Part shown: one piece after another, positions 14,461-50,400 of the stretch
Position numbering within the stretch: position 1 is the stretch's first letter
How the letters are laid out: the number at the start of each line of letters is the position of its first letter
Source: Zootoca vivipara
Lineage: Eukaryota
Assembly (NCBI RefSeq): GCF_963506605.1
Contig: NC_083283.1
Location: 78,430,001 to 78,494,000, forward strand
DNA: 64,000 nucleotides
Reading direction: 5' to 3'
Made by a program: the position numbers

Positions 14461-17400
14461 TTATTAAAGATTAAGACTCACCTGGGCTCGGACCACCCTC
14501 CTCATAATCCCGTTTGTTCATAATCAGGAGTCAACTCTTCAAATGTTAAAAAGTGAAAGAGCAGAAAGCTGACAGTTGCTCTCTCGTTTTGTACAAGACC
14601 TCAAATCCTGTCTCTCGATAGTAGTGGATTAATCCTGAAGCAAGTCATCAAAGCTTCATGCAGTTTAAAGTATGCATGTGACACAAAGCCAAGCTGCAGT
14701 GCAGAAGCAGCAGAAGCAGCACTCTCCAACAGATTAAGCTGAGAGAGATGTTCATCAGTGATAAATCCCCCCCACACAGCAGTAAGGGCAGGGCCTACAT
14801 CTCTATCATCAAGTGTCGCCAGGTAGAAAGCCTTAAATTACACCTAGAATTGACTTGCTCTTTCCAGCAGCAGATGTCTCTGAAGCTATTCCATTACACA
14901 AGCCCTCCTTGTGGGTATGAAAGCAGTGAGGATCCAATAATTTCGACAGCATGCTATTCATAAACCAATATTTTATGTAGATAAAATATTTAATCCTAAA
15001 TCCATGGGATTAAAGAGCTAGTAAATGATTTTTAACTTATATTATCTTAGCGGCTCTTAAACTACAGGTTGGGACCTCTTGGGGAAGAGTGCAAGGCTTT
15101 TAGATGTTTGGATGGAAAGTACCTAGGACATGGGTACGCAAACTAAGGCCTGGGGGCCAGATCCGGCCCAATCACCTTCTAAATCTGGCCCGCAGACTGT
15201 CCGGGAATCAGCCTGTTTTACATGAGTAGAATATGCACTTTTATTTAAAATGCATCTCTGGGTTATTTGTGGAGCCTGCCTGGTATTTTTGCATGAGTAG
15301 AATGTGTGCTTTTATTTAAAATGCACCCTCTGGGTTATTTGTGGGGCATAGGAACAGGGCCGGCTCTAGGTATAGTTCCGGTGGTGCGGGACGCCAGGGC
15401 GCTGCGAGGCTGGGCGCTGCAAGGGGGGGCGCCGGAGCGATCTCCGTGCCTCAGCGCCAGGGCGCCCGACCTGCTCGAGACTGCCCTGCATAGGAATTCA
15501 TTCATTTTTTGTCCCCCCACAAGGTCTGAGGGACAGTGGACCGGCCCCCTGCTGAAAAAGTTTGCTGACCCCTGACCTAGGAAGTAGTAAACCCTGCAGC
15601 AATCAGTCAGAGATAGCATTAGTATCAGCATTTTGGTGGCTGTAATTGTGGAAACTGAAGAGGGAGCGAAAACATGGGAGCTTCTAGCCACAGCAACCAC
15701 ACTCCCCATACATCTCCTTCCCTGGTTGGGTGGCTTCAGGAGAGTGTCCTGCACATTAGAGTGTCTGTTCCGTCCCTCTAATGCCAGTGTGGGATTAGTC
15801 CCCTAGTTCACAGATACTCATGCAAACAATAGTAGTCATACCTCATGTTGTATCCGCTTCAGGTTGCGTCTTTTCAGCTTGCGAACGCGGCAAACCCAGA
15901 AGTGTTTACTTCCGGGTTTTGCTTCACGCGTGCGCAGAAGCACTGCTCTCGTTGCGGACTTTTTGGGGTGTGAATGGCACCCCGGAACGGATCGTGTCCG
16001 CAACCAGCGTTACCATTGTATGAGAATTCTGGCCACTTGCCTCCAGAAGAATCACTGCTGCTGAGTTTGGAGACAGAGGGCTGGTAAAGGTAAAGGGACC
16101 CCGGACCATTAGGCCCAGTCGTGACCGACTCTGGGGTTGCGGTGCTAATCTTTCAATATTGGCAGAGGGAGCCGGCGTACAGCTTCCTGGTCATGTAACC
16201 AGCATGGCAAAGCCACTTCTGGCGAACCAGAGCAGCGCACGGAAACGCCATTTACCTTCCCGCTGTAGCAGTACAGTGGTACCTCGGTTTATGAACACAA
16301 TTGGTTCCGGAAGTCTGTTCATAAACTGAAGCGTTCATAAACTGAAGCGAACTTTCCCATTGAAAGTAATGGAAAGTGGATTAATCCGTTCCAGACAGTC
16401 CGCGGAGTACTTAAACTGAAGCGTTCATAAACTGAAGCAAACTTTCCCTTTGAAAGTAATGGAAAGTGGATTAATCCGTTCCAGACGGGTCCGCGGAGTA
16501 CTTAAACTGAAATGTTCATAAACTGAAGCATGGGTGTAATTGGTTACGGAAGTCTGTTCATAAACTGAAGCGTTCATAAACTGAAGCGAACTTTCCCATT
16601 GAAAGTAATGGAAAATGAATTAACCCGTTCCAGATGGGTCCACGGCGTTCATAAACCGAAAATTCATAAACCGAGGTGTTCATAAACCGAGGTTCCACTG
16701 TACCTGTTTATCTACTTGCACTCTGACGTGCTTTCGAGCTGCTAGGTTGGCAGGAGCTGGGACCGAGCCACGGGAGCTCACCCCATCACGGGCTGGTAGA
16801 GCTAGGCAAAAATCCTGTACCGCTTTCGTGTTTCATTGGGAGCAAGTCCCAATGAACCCAGTGGGACTTTTTCAGAGTAGATATGCGGTTAATTTCAGAA
16901 GACAATCTGAGTTCAAAGAGTTTTTTGGAACTTTGCAAATTCCTTTTTGAAATGATCTGGCAGAGGAAGAGGCAAATGCTATTTGTTGAAATATATTTGT
17001 TTTCCATCAAGCCCAATTCACACACTTGTTCTGAAGCACTAGAGTCCTCACAAATTACTATAAGGAGCCATTTGTGTCAAAAGTTTGCTCTGTCAGAGAG
17101 AAGACCTTCAAGTCTTCTTTGTGATTTGTTAACCTTTTGATGCACTTCTACCTAGCAAATAGATACCTAGCAAACTGCCTCCCCATTGCAACCCTGATCT
17201 CCCTCTCAGATCTTCTAAAACAGCCATGCTGACCATACCCCAACTGGTGAAATGCCATCTCAAAAATTAGCTTCTCAGTAGTACCACCCACTCTCTAGAA
17301 CACAGTCCCACACAAGGCAGAAGTTAAAGCATCTCCTGAAGAGCCATCTATTTAAGAAGCCTTTCACTGGCTCATACAATTCATCTGCTTGTTCTGCTTG

Positions 17401-47400: not shown

Positions 47401-50400
47401 TGCCCTCTTCAATCCTTTATAGTCCTAATCCTAATATGTCTAAGGGATAGGAGGAAAAGGGTTTGATCATGGTTATTCATTTGTAAAAGAAATTTGCACA
47501 AACTCAGTGACTTTCTGCTTCTGATGTAATATGGCACTCACTGTCGTTGTCCCCCCCCCCATGTGACCCATGATTCATCGTGTTTTTATATCATTCCTTT
47601 TAACAGCAAACTCAAGTGGTGAATGTAGACAGGACTGAAGCGAAAACAGAGCCCTGAGAACAGGAGGCTCTCTAACAGGTTCAGGGGGATCTTGAGGTTT
47701 CCAAAGTACCAAAAATCCTTTTATACCCCACCCCAAAGGGCACCTGTCCTCAAATAATGGCTCAGTAAGGACTGGGCATGTTTTAGTAGCCACAAACTGT
47801 TGAGAGTCATTTGGCGAAGAAAAACTGAAAAGGAGAGGCAGGAAGAGGGGGGTAGGGGGTGGCGTGGCTGGCTGAGACCGTGAACACAAGCACTCTTACT
47901 AGGACAGAGAATATACGGCAACATTTTATTGCAGTACCCTATTGCTTATCATTAACTATATCTAGGGTTGCCAACTTTGGTTGGGCAAAATATGGGACAG
48001 GCTGGGCAAAATAAAACTCAGGACACACTCTGTAGACATGTTGCAGTAAGTTTTGTAAGGAATAATTTACAAGCAGTCCAACGTAGAGAAGCAGGGCACT
48101 TCTTTTTCTCCTCCTGGCTAACCTCTTGCCGCCACCCCACCACCACCTTCTTTACCCATCCTTGAGGCAATTTCCCCAATTAAACTGAGAATGCAGCCAC
48201 AAAATTCTGTAGGCCTTCCTGAATTTTTTTGCCCTTAGTTTTCACTTGCCATTGCTGACATTGGAGGAGGGGAAGCAAACAAGAAGGAAAGGGTCAAGGA
48301 AGAGGTTATGAAACAGGCATATGATAATGAGCTCAGTCCATAAAGTGATTCAGAACAAGAACCAGCTCCAGAGCCCTATTGCAGCTATCCTTCTCTGGAA
48401 GGGCAACTGGGAGGCTACTGCTTGCATATTTCCTCTCGTAACTCTGTGTAAAATGACTACAGTGTGGTGTAGTGGTTAAGAGCGGGAAGCGGGTTTGGTG
48501 CTGGATGACCTTGGACTACACTTCTTTGAAGTCTCTCAGCCCCACTCACCTCACAGAGTGTTTGTTTTGGGGGAGGAAGGGAAAGGAGAATGTTAGCTGC
48601 TTTGAGACTCCTTCGGGTAGTGATAAAGCGGGATATCAAATGCAAACTCTTCTTCTTTTCTTTAATGAAAGCTAGAAATGCAGCTAGGGGTCCTGGGCCG
48701 TCTGTAAGGGACCAGGTCCTCACAGGTCACCCTGTAGAAATCTGTCTAGGGCTGGTTATAGTATATCAAATGTGGGTGTATGCTTTTTTTTTAAAAAAAA
48801 AATGCAGGTCAGTTCAGCAAGACCTGACACTGGAAATTGATGGTGTCTTTGTAATATTCGTTTTGTTTACAATTATAGTGGCACAGCATAGTGAAGAAGA
48901 AGAAGAAGAAGAGTATCGGGAAGTTTTTAATGTTTGATGTTTTACTATGTTTTTAGATGTTCTGTAAGCCACCCAGAGTGGCTGGGGAAACCCAGCCAGA
49001 TGGGTGGGGTATAAGGATGGTGCTACTAGAGGCATTGGCTAGCTTCAAGGTTTTCCCCACATTGTGATTTTTGCATAGCAAAGACACACACACACGATTC
49101 AATATATATTGCCAGGTCTAAAATTGTGAAAACGCTATCACAATAAGGACTTCAAACTAGTTTTGGATGATATATCGCCCAATCCTATTCTGCACTATTT
49201 CCACAGAAGTTAGAGTGCAATTCCTAAACCCCAAACTCCAGACCTTGCCACACTAACCTATTGGCTAATGCCACTGGCATACCATGGTCTACCGGCAAGC
49301 CCCGCCGCCAGGCCGGTTGGGGAAAATGTTCCAGGGCCGAGCACAACATGGCCCCTCTGTTAAGAGGATCCACCTTCTCACCACAACATATCTCAAAGTA
49401 AATGTTGCTGGATTTTGAAGTTATTCTATGGCAAGTCCTTCAGGTTCCACTATGAGGCTAAATGTTTTACCAAAGATGCTGAAAATGGTGGCAGTAATGA
49501 GGATTTCCCACAACAGCAAACACTCCTGATTTTTGCAAGGCAGTCCTATTTTAATGTAAGATTAAATAACTGCTGCACTTCTCTGTTAGTTTAAGGGGAT
49601 ATCTGGTGGAGAGGGAAGGTGAGGGCAATGTGCTATCTCTGGATTTGTTCTTTCAGTAATGTTTTATGGCAGAGGTTGTGTATAGTTGCACAAAGATAAC
49701 CATCAGGCTTTGTCTAATTGTTCCAGCACTTGTCAAATAACTGCTTGTAAAGTTTATATAATACAACAAGGTGACTCCTTTGCTGTTAGGCTGTTTGTTG
49801 ACCTTCCTACCTACTTTTTATGTTTAACATTCCTCCTCTTATCATCCCCATCTCTCCCTCTCTGAGCCATATTGCTCTTTTCTAAAAGTCGGTGAATCAG
49901 ATTTCCCATCCACAAATCTGCTTTTCAAATCCCTCAAGATAGTCCTGAGGACAGGTTGTTCGAATACCAGAAAAAGGCAGAAATGCTTTTCTTGGAGTTG
50001 AGCATACCTGCCAAGACTTGGCTTAAAGAATCTTGGACATTTAACTTGTCCTGAGACACATCTGTGTTAATAACAATTGTGTAAAACAAAATGGCTCAAC
50101 AGAAACTGCTGTAGCAGAACAAATAGTGTACATTCAGTTTCATGAGAAAAATATTTAATGTGCATTTGAGGCAAAACTTTCTTAAGGTAGCATACAACTG
50201 TTAGATAAAGCTTTTATACTTCCAACTGTGGCTGTCTAGTGTTGGTGCCAAAAGCACTGAAAATGTGAAACTGAGGAATTGCTAAATATTTTGGGGAAGA
50301 ATTTAGCAAGGTGTTGAAAAGAAGATGTAGTTTTGAATTATATTTATAGCAATGTTTTTGAACCATATAAACCACCTGATTGCCTCTGACCCTATCTGGC

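What the first reader, a model, noticed from the sequence alone, without database searches (positions are those of the whole stretch)
14482..47578. Possible array of alternative first exons giving KCC4 interchangeable N-termini
Seen: besides canonical exon 1 (37791-37965), four short - strand units start with ATG, have no internal stop, end at GTGAGT and are all phase 1 (40, 34, 43 and 37 nt), the phase needed to join the shared GDGNP exon. Known: KCC2 (a/b) and KCC3 (a/b) use alternative promoters and first exons that add or remove regulatory N-terminal motifs. Inference: this lizard locus may carry up to five promoter/first-exon modules spread over 33 kb. Caveat: short phase-1 ATG-to-GT units arise by chance, so only those with extra support were kept.
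Basis: partly seen in the sequence, partly recalled or inferred. Interest (0 to 1): 0.72.

Follow-up and report, generated by a model that had tools for sequence, protein, structure and literature searches.

The report
One real alternative KCC4 first exon
Of four proposed extra first exons for the lizard KCC4 (SLC12A7) gene, one is a genuine alternative first coding exon conserved across reptiles, birds, marsupials and monotremes, and the other three look like chance strings, two of them inside copies of one repeat.

Summary
The four short minus-strand units exist exactly as described. As a class they are no more than chance: 6 of 16 GTGAGT sites on that strand carry such a unit, against 3.3±1.8 in 300 shuffles, and 39 of 300 shuffles reach 6. 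The shared exon 2 is not in the window. In lizards it reads GDGIP, not GDGNP.

Unit 14482-14521 (MNKRDYEEGGPSP, CAG|GTGAGT, phase 1) is real. It matches 12 of 13 residues of the N-terminus of annotated SLC12A7 isoforms of Lacerta agilis (X7) and Podarcis lilfordi (X5). The same peptide opens 37 of 287 alignable SLC12A7 proteins from 31 species: squamates, turtles, crocodilians, birds, marsupials and monotremes. It lies 23.3 kb inside intron 1. It replaces the 58-residue N-terminus (MPTNFTVVPVE...) with a 13-residue acidic one, as KCC2a/KCC2b do.

Units 40431, 43906 and 47542 match none of 74 distinct annotated alternative N-termini. The last two sit in two 93%-identical copies of one 519-bp repeat.

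The five-module array upstream of exon 1 is not supported. Transcription in this species was not testable.

The parts
37791..37965 (-). Canonical SLC12A7 (KCC4) exon 1, coding part. ATG at 37965, 175 nt, phase 1, 58 aa (MPTNFTVVPVE...PGSR). Donor GCGAGT at 37790-37785 (GC-AG intron).
   Evidence: 58/58 aa identical to Zootoca vivipara SLC12A7 X2/X3 (P0007, P0011). One search gave E=1.4e-21 to Podarcis raffonei SLC12A7 X3. Only phase 1 with the GC donor gives ...PGSR-G-DGIP through the acceptor that exon 1b also uses.
14482..14521 (-). Alternative first coding exon ('exon 1b'). ATG at 14521, 40 nt, phase 1, MNKRDYEEGGPSP. Donor CAG|GTGAGT is a full match to MAG|GTRAGT. A at -3 of the ATG and an in-frame stop four codons upstream.
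   Evidence: 12/13 identical to the N-termini of Lacerta agilis X7 and Podarcis lilfordi X5 (tblastn E=2.5e-6). The same peptide opens 37 of 287 SLC12A7 proteins from 31 amniote species. 21 distinct 1b-type N-termini hit exactly 14483-14521.
40431..40464 (-). Short ATG...GTGAGT unit (MVVWPDRFEVR). Best read as a chance string.
   Evidence: Present as described. None of 74 distinct annotated N-termini matches it. CpG o/e is 0.19. No other copy in the window.
43906..43948 (-). Short ATG...GTGAGT unit inside repeat copy A. Best read as chance.
   Evidence: The exon side of the donor is ATA|GT. The poly-G run is 13 here and 10 in copy B. No annotated N-terminus matches.
47542..47578 (-). Short ATG...GTGAGT unit inside repeat copy B. 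It is the paralogous piece of the 43906 unit.
43870..44387 (.). Interspersed repeat, copy A (519-bp alignment). Sharp ends, with an A-rich end (..AAAATAAA) on the + strand.
   Evidence: blastn self-comparison: 93.4% over 519 bp to 47506-48015, and only two copies in the window.
47506..48015 (.). Interspersed repeat, copy B.
4323..4386 (-). ATG, 64 nt, phase 1, MSELVCCPLLLILAGLLRKLE, donor GTAACC.
   Evidence: 21/21 aa identical to the N-terminus of Podarcis muralis SLC12A7 X2 (P0135). Seen in that one species only among the proteins fetched.
37513..37608 (-). Counterpart of the Lacerta agilis X3 N-terminus (33 aa). Not usable here: GTG replaces the ATG and no GT donor follows.
   Evidence: tblastn 30/32 aa, first residue V. 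Sequence read.
37082..37248 (-). Counterpart of the Podarcis raffonei X1/X2/X4/X6 N-terminus (65 aa). The frame is broken in the window, so it probably marks a non-coding alternative 5' exon within the CpG island.
   Evidence: Two tblastn pieces in different frames. Three-frame reading.
37001..38500 (.). The CpG island around exon 1, the only strong one in the window. It is the presumed canonical promoter.
   Evidence: 500-nt windows with GC 0.53-0.74 and CpG o/e 0.64-0.92.

Best explanation
The window holds the 5' end of a lacertid SLC12A7 (KCC4) gene on the minus strand: exon 1 in a CpG island and at least 37.8 kb of intron 1. Unit 14482-14521 is the lizard copy of an alternative first coding exon (here 'exon 1b') that is conserved across the amniote groups sampled. 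The likely mechanism is as follows. Transcripts that start inside intron 1 carry this ATG. They splice from CAG|GTGAGT in phase 1 to the common exon 2, which lies outside the window. The resulting KCC4 has 13 acidic residues (M-x-x-x-D-Y-E-E-x-G-P-x-x) in place of the 58-residue N-terminus MPTNFTVVPVE.... The common part, from GDGIPRESS onward, is unchanged. The short form therefore loses the xFxV segment. That segment sits where KCC2a and other cotransporters carry the SPAK/OSR1 docking motif RFxV/I, so the switch probably alters kinase docking or regulation, as it does between KCC2a and KCC2b. Shown here: the ATG, open frame, donor and phase, and the orthology to annotated N-termini. Inferred: transcription and a promoter in this species, and any functional effect. 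Units 40431, 43906 and 47542 are chance ATG-to-GTGAGT strings. The last two belong to two copies of one interspersed repeat.
For: Exon 1 is 58/58 identical to Zootoca vivipara SLC12A7 X2/X3. The 14482 unit matches Lacerta agilis X7 and Podarcis lilfordi X5 at 12 of 13 residues, ending exactly at the donor. Of 329 named proteins fetched, 287 could be aligned at exon 2: 161 have the canonical N-terminus, 37 the 1b type and 89 another type. The 37 come from 13 squamate, 3 turtle, 3 crocodilian, 5 bird, 5 marsupial and 2 monotreme species (names). Among 29 thirteen-residue versions, M1, E7 and G10 are invariant, and D5, Y6 and E8 are each 28 of 29. The junction residue follows the first exon. In birds it is G after exon 1 but R or S after 1b, as expected when a phase-1 codon takes its first base from the first exon. 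The residues before the ATG (LIM/MIM/MM) also recur in a bird, a cordylid and a turtle. For the other units: 0 of 74 distinct alternative N-termini hit them, shuffles give as many such units as observed, and the repeat pair is 93.4% identical over 519 bp with the unit in its least conserved stretch. On the KCC2 parallel I read passages of PMC13694278 and PMC7606576.
Against: No RNA evidence for this species was available, so use of exon 1b here is inferred from orthologues. No Zootoca 1b isoform was among the 15 of 33 cluster members listed. The Zootoca isoforms seen there carry either the canonical N-terminus or an 81-residue one that does not map to the window. The window has K at position 3, where 26 of 29 sequences have E. 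There is no CpG island at 1b (CpG o/e 0.24), and CpG-rich windows 0.5-1.7 kb upstream overlap repeats. A pyrimidine-rich stretch followed by an AG lies before the ATG, so the exon could in some transcripts be joined to an upstream non-coding exon. The annotated isoforms are mostly automated models (Gnomon, Ensembl). KCC4's NFTV/SFTV is not the canonical RFxV/I, so a loss of kinase docking is a guess. Absence of annotation does not prove that units 40431, 43906 and 47542 are never used.
Confidence: 0.8

Rival explanations
1. One reading: five promoter/first-exon modules (14482, 37791, 40431, 43906, 47542) all feed the common exon 2 and give KCC4 five interchangeable N-termini.
For: All five units have ATG, an open frame, phase 1 and a donor. 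Lacertid annotation does show many alternative 5' ends for this gene.
Against: Units 40431, 43906 and 47542 match 0 of 74 distinct annotated N-termini. 43906 and 47542 are copies of one repeat, with poor exon-side donor context (ATA|GT, ACA|GT) and a poly-G run of varying length. The number of such units is within the shuffle expectation. None has a CpG island.
Confidence: 0.03
2. All four short units, 14482 included, are chance strings, and KCC4 here has a single first exon.
For: As a class the units are no more frequent than in shuffles.
Against: The 14482 peptide is kept, with its start, length and junction phase, in annotated isoforms of 31 amniote species. It maps to that exact spot at E=2.5e-6.
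Confidence: 0.03
3. The 14482 exon is real and coding but is not a true first exon. It is preceded by one or more non-coding 5' exons, so its promoter lies elsewhere, possibly in or near the exon 1 CpG island.
For: A pyrimidine-rich stretch and an AG lie within 40 nt before the ATG. There is no CpG island at the exon. One partial bird model reads through from upstream sequence into LIM-SEQDYEE (P0090). Alternative 5' exons exist within 900 bp downstream of exon 1 in other lacertids.
Against: Most models start the protein at this ATG. An in-frame stop lies four codons upstream in the window. Joining canonical exon 1 to it would, on my reading of the sequence, run into a stop.
Confidence: 0.15
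4. The repeat copies at 43870-44387 and 47506-48015 act as transposon-derived alternative promoters with first exons.
For: Each copy carries ATG, an open frame and GTGAGT in phase 1. Transposon-derived first exons occur in vertebrate genes (general knowledge).
Against: No annotated isoform matches them. The unit lies in the most divergent 60 nt of the repeat: family D5 is 86% identical, against 96% for D1. The peptide differs between the copies.
Confidence: 0.03

Closest known systems
KCC2a / KCC2b (SLC12A5), two N-terminal isoforms from alternative promoters and first exons
   Same: There are two mutually exclusive first coding exons that splice to a common exon starting GDG.P(K/R)E(S/N)SPF. 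One N-terminus is long and carries an xFxV-type segment. The other is short, acidic and glycine-rich and lacks it. In one search the tail of 1b (EEGGPSP) aligns with GDGGANP directly before GDGNPKESSPF in a KCC2 chain (6m23_A).
   Different: This is a different gene (KCC4). KCC4's long form has NFTV/SFTV, not the RFxV/I that binds SPAK (PMC13694278 passages). Homology of the two short exons cannot be shown from 7 aligned residues. No isoform-specific function is known for KCC4.
KCC3a / KCC3b (SLC12A6), alternative first exons 1a and 1b
   Same: The principle is the same: alternative first exons give different N-termini with tissue-specific use (PMC9301082 passages).
   Different: According to that paper the KCC3 exons encode 90 and 39 residues. 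Here they encode 58 and 13.
Annotated SLC12A7 isoforms with the same N-terminus, e.g. Lacerta agilis X7 (XP_033010238.1) and Podarcis lilfordi X5 (CAI5780248.1)
   Same: The peptide is MNERDYEEGGPSP against MNKRDYEEGGPSP in the window, with the same junction to GDGIPRESS.
   Different: There is one substitution (E3K). No such isoform of the window's own species was among the members listed.

Membership tests
SLC12A7 (KCC4) gene, 5' end | Exon 1 encodes the SLC12A7 N-terminus | tested here: met
   58/58 aa to Zootoca vivipara SLC12A7 X2/X3. E=1.4e-21 to Podarcis raffonei X3.
SLC12A7 (KCC4) gene, 5' end | Common exon 2 (GDG.P...) present, so that the phase and acceptor can be read | tested here: not met
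   tblastn with P0011/P0007 finds exon 1 only, and the six-frame GDG.P search finds no such exon. Exon 2 lies beyond the window.
KCC-type alternative first coding exon (as KCC2a/b, KCC3a/b) | Own ATG, open frame and a donor in the same phase as canonical exon 1 | tested here: met
   All four units and exon 1 are phase 1. Six donor sites on the strand meet this, and the shuffle expectation is 3.3, so the feature does not discriminate.
KCC-type alternative first coding exon (as KCC2a/b, KCC3a/b) | The encoded N-terminus is found in orthologues' isoforms, joined to exon 2 | tested here: met
   This row covers unit 14482 only: 37 of 287 alignable proteins from 31 species carry it.
KCC-type alternative first coding exon (as KCC2a/b, KCC3a/b) | The encoded N-terminus is found in orthologues' isoforms (units 40431, 43906, 47542) | tested here: not met
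   0 of 74 distinct alternative N-termini of 12 aa or more hit these coordinates at E<=0.05.
KCC-type alternative first coding exon (as KCC2a/b, KCC3a/b) | Separate promoter or transcription start | not testable with these tools
   No RNA or CAGE data and no vertebrate DNA collection were available. CpG o/e at 1b is 0.24.
KCC-type alternative first coding exon (as KCC2a/b, KCC3a/b) | The isoforms differ in a SPAK/OSR1 docking motif (RFxV/I) | tested here: inconclusive
   Canonical exon 1 has NFTV at residues 4-7 and 1b has no xFxV. The papers read describe R, or H, at the first position (passages). Binding by NFTV is unknown.
Interspersed repeat (units 43906 and 47542) | Two or more dispersed copies with sharp common boundaries | tested here: met
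   43870-44387 against 47506-48015: 519 bp, 93.4% identical, flanks unrelated.
Interspersed repeat (units 43906 and 47542) | Assignable to a named transposon family, with target-site duplications | tested here: inconclusive
   No Pfam domain in its 105-aa frame. No Rfam match in the window. No clear duplication at the ends. No repeat library was on hand.

The most novel reading that the evidence does not exclude
KCC4 has an unstudied second isoform ('KCC4b') with a 13-residue acidic N-terminus, kept since before the split of mammals and sauropsids. Its first exon may be the paralogous counterpart of the short KCC2b first exon. In that case the two-promoter design (a long xFxV-bearing N-terminus against a short acidic one) would predate the KCC2/KCC4 duplication. 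Some marsupial SLC12A7 isoforms also start MSQRFVVTP..., which holds a true RFxV motif. The ancestral K-Cl cotransporter gene may therefore have carried three kinds of first exon, retained to different degrees in the paralogues.
Probability: 0.25. Interest if true: 0.6.

Novelty: new member of a known kind. Interest (0 to 1): 0.4.

Why it matters
N-terminal isoforms from alternative first exons are an established control point for KCC2 and KCC3: they set kinase docking, tissue use and the behaviour of heteromers. KCC4 is treated as a single form in the reviews I read in passages. Five full-text searches found no paper describing a KCC4 alternative first exon. Public automated annotation nevertheless carries a short N-terminus that is almost invariant at D-Y-E-E-x-G from monotremes to birds and lizards, which points to selection on the peptide itself. 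That makes one question directly testable: do the long and short KCC4 forms differ in WNK-SPAK/OSR1 control, swelling activation or trafficking? For the scan, the case also shows that ATG-to-GTGAGT strings alone are uninformative. One in four was real, and only comparison with orthologues identified it.

Tried and rejected
1. I looked for exon 2 and later exons in the window and found none.
2. I tested whether the repeat pair could be the LTRs of one element. It has no TG..CA ends, no clear target duplication and an A-rich end on the + strand, so I treat it as two copies of an interspersed repeat of unknown family.
3. I looked for more copies of the repeat, and for copies of the 40431 and 14482 contexts. 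I found none beyond a (GA)n run next to 14482.
4. An Rfam scan of the whole window gave 0 matches.
5. A Pfam scan of 9 frames upstream of exon 1 found only reverse-transcriptase fragments at 61573-62341; the repeat frame and the frames at 53.4-55.3 kb gave nothing.
6. I looked in the window for a lizard counterpart of the marsupial MSQRFVVTP N-terminus. The only hit was weak and low-complexity, at 53510-53677 (E=0.007, 32% identity), and I rejected it.
7. The third homologue search, aimed at residues 1-40 of a 1b isoform, drew only 21 candidates. It added no clade and says nothing about placentals, amphibians or fish.
8. I left the representative-library search unused. It carries no names, so vertebrate hits could not be told from human ones.
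9. The bacterial and archaeal genome collection was not scanned, since it cannot hold a lizard locus.

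
Full report
**What the window is.** The window has no N and is 42% G+C. On the minus strand, 37791-37965 encodes 58 residues beginning MPTNFTVVPVE. A protein search with this exon alone returned one cluster, whose representative is Podarcis raffonei SLC12A7 X3 (E=1.4e-21). Its 12 members are lacertid SLC12A7 isoforms. Two of them, Zootoca vivipara X2 and X3, are identical to the window over all 58 residues. tblastn of these full-length proteins against the window finds exon 1 and nothing else. 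A relaxed search and a six-frame motif search do not find exon 2 either. In lizards it reads GDGIPRESS. GDGNP is the mammalian form, as the PDB chains show. The donor after exon 1 is GCGAGT. Only this GC donor gives phase 1 and the junction ...PGSR-G-DGIP.

**The observation.** All four short units are present as described. As a class they are not unusual. In 300 dinucleotide-preserving shuffles the mean is 3.33 (sd 1.81). 39 of 300 shuffles reach 6 and 71 of 300 reach 5. Units 43906 and 47542 are not independent. They lie 36 nt inside two copies of one repeat, 43870-44387 and 47506-48015, which are 93.4% identical over 519 bp and have sharp ends and unrelated flanks. The repeat has an A-rich end on the + strand, so the units are antisense to it. 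The stretch holding the units is the least conserved part of the repeat (86% against 96%). It contains a poly-G run of 13 in one copy and 10 in the other. Their donors have poor exon sides (ATA|GT, ACA|GT).

**What orthologues show.**
- A search with residues 59-140 of a Zootoca isoform, a database protein and not a model of mine, listed 120 of 1218 hits.
- Two cluster look-ups added 202 more proteins.
- I dropped four proteins from unnamed sources. Of the 329 named proteins, 287 could be anchored at the start of exon 2.
- Of those 287, 161 have the canonical N-terminus, 37 have a short N-terminus of the form M-(N/S/R)-E-(Q/R)-D-Y-E-E-(G/S)-G-P-x-x, and 89 have something else (58 distinct sequences).
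- The 37 come from 31 species: 13 squamates, 3 turtles, 3 crocodilians, 5 birds, 5 marsupials and 2 monotremes. The marsupial forms are the most diverged, for example MSERDYEEEAIP.
- Lacerta agilis X7 and Podarcis lilfordi X5 read MNERDYEEGGPSP. The window's 14483-14521 reads MNKRDYEEGGPSP, a 12 of 13 match that ends exactly at CAG|GTGAGT (E=2.5e-6).
- Among 29 thirteen-residue versions, M1, E7 and G10 never vary, and D5, Y6 and E8 vary once each.
- The junction residue behaves as a phase-1 codon should. In birds it is G after exon 1, but R after 1b in five of the six bird 1b proteins and S in the sixth.
- By contrast, the canonical exon 1 is variable after its first 12 residues.

The 14482 unit is therefore a real coding first exon, conserved across the amniote groups sampled. 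It lies 23.3 kb downstream of exon 1.

**The other three units.** I collected 74 distinct non-canonical N-termini of 12 residues or more and ran them against the window. 21 of the 1b type hit 14483-14521. None hit 40431-40464, 43906-43948 or 47542-47578. None of the three sits in a CpG island. I read them as chance strings.

**Other alternative 5' ends that map to the window.**
- The Podarcis muralis X2 N-terminus (21 aa) is 21/21 identical at 4323-4386. It has an ATG, is 64 nt in phase 1 and has donor GTAACC.
- The Lacerta agilis X3 N-terminus maps to 37513-37608, but here it starts with GTG and lacks a donor.
- The Podarcis raffonei X1 N-terminus maps to 37082-37248 with a broken frame.
- The 81-residue N-terminus of Zootoca X1/X4 is not in the window.

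An array of alternative 5' exons therefore exists in lacertid annotation. The members that map to the window lie inside intron 1, not upstream of exon 1, and only 1b is conserved beyond lacertids.

**How it most likely works.**
- Shown: exon 1b has its own ATG (A at -3, and an in-frame stop four codons upstream), an open frame, a perfect consensus donor and the phase of exon 1.
- Inferred: a start site within intron 1 produces transcripts that splice 1b to exon 2. The result is a KCC4 that lacks the first 58 residues and carries 13 acidic ones instead.
- The lost segment includes NFTV (SFTV in birds, turtles and some lizards). It sits where KCC2a carries the SPAK/OSR1 docking motif RFxV/I.
- Passages of PMC13694278 state that KCC2a has this motif and KCC2b does not. 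They also state that histidine is tolerated at the first position, and that a KCC1 lacking its first 19 residues loses phosphorylation of its regulatory threonines.
- Passages of PMC7606576 and PMC9301082 describe the alternative promoters and first exons of KCC2 and KCC3.
- By analogy, the 1a/1b choice in KCC4 may alter kinase docking or regulation. Nothing here tests that, and NFTV is not a proven docking site.
- The acidic D-Y-E-E context would suit a tyrosine kinase site. This is my inference only.

**Comparison with KCC2b.** phmmer of the first 75 residues of a 1b isoform against PDB sequences extends the alignment into the 1b peptide for a KCC2 chain: EEGGPSP against GDGGANP, directly before GDGNPKESSPF (6m23_A). 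It does not do so for the KCC2 chain whose N-terminus ends ..EDVK. Seven residues cannot prove homology. In addition, mammalian KCC4 exon 1 ends ..SPTP in the mouse chain and ..RPSP in the human one. I keep this as the novel reading only.

**Novelty.** The exon is present in automated public annotation, close relatives included, so it is not new to the databases. Five full-text searches found no paper describing a KCC4 alternative first exon or N-terminal isoform. For the papers cited I saw search listings and the passages returned by 'find', not whole texts. Supplements were closed. The library lacks most subscription journals.

**Limits.**
- No vertebrate DNA or RNA collection was available, so DNA-level conservation, promoters and junctions in this species remain unchecked. 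The two closed collections were not used, and the prokaryote genome collection was not scanned.
- Only 15 of the 33 members of the main lacertid cluster were listed, so I cannot say whether a Zootoca 1b isoform is annotated.
- Placentals were represented by only two single proteins, and amphibians and fish were not sampled.
- Each exon was handled on its own. Exon 1 went to the database by itself. Exon 1b was compared by running database N-termini against the window. I did not build or search a joined model of 1b with downstream exons.
- I took no contig for human.

Noticed in passing
window 37785-37790 (-): The canonical exon 1 of SLC12A7 ends at a GC donor (GAG|GCGAGT), not GT. This is the only reading that gives phase 1 and the annotated junction PGSR-G-DGIP.
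   Followed up: partly
window 4323-4386 (-): A 64-nt phase-1 ATG unit with donor GTAACC encodes MSELVCCPLLLILAGLLRKLE. It is 21/21 identical to the N-terminus of Podarcis muralis SLC12A7 X2. It was seen in one species only.
   Followed up: partly
window 37082-37608 (-): Two further lacertid-annotated N-terminal frames (Lacerta agilis X3, Podarcis raffonei X1) map just downstream of exon 1 inside the CpG island. They are not intact here: one has ATG changed to GTG and the other is frameshifted. This suggests non-coding alternative 5' exons whose ORFs are lineage-specific.
   Followed up: partly
proteins P0251, P0253, P0261, P0279, P0281 (marsupial SLC12A7 isoforms): Bilby and koala SLC12A7 isoforms start MSQRFVVTPAAGG..., which holds a true RFxV motif. 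This is a third kind of first exon. No convincing counterpart was found in the lizard window.
   Followed up: partly
window 61068-62622 (-): Fragments of a non-LTR retrotransposon reverse transcriptase lie in several broken frames (Pfam RVT_1, E=1.8e-21 and 3.1e-06).
   Followed up: partly
window 15001-16250 and 53251-54000: These are moderately CpG-rich windows (GC 0.51-0.55, CpG o/e 0.63-0.76). The first lies 0.5-1.7 kb upstream of exon 1b but overlaps dispersed and tandem repeats (16299-16671). The second has no known feature.
   Followed up: no
window 14483-14521 (-), codon 3: The window has K (AAA) at position 3 of exon 1b, where 26 of 29 thirteen-residue orthologues, both other lacertids included, have E.
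   Followed up: no
window 38392-38654: An array of roughly 40-50-nt direct repeats rich in (CA)n lies just upstream of the exon 1 CpG island.
   Followed up: no
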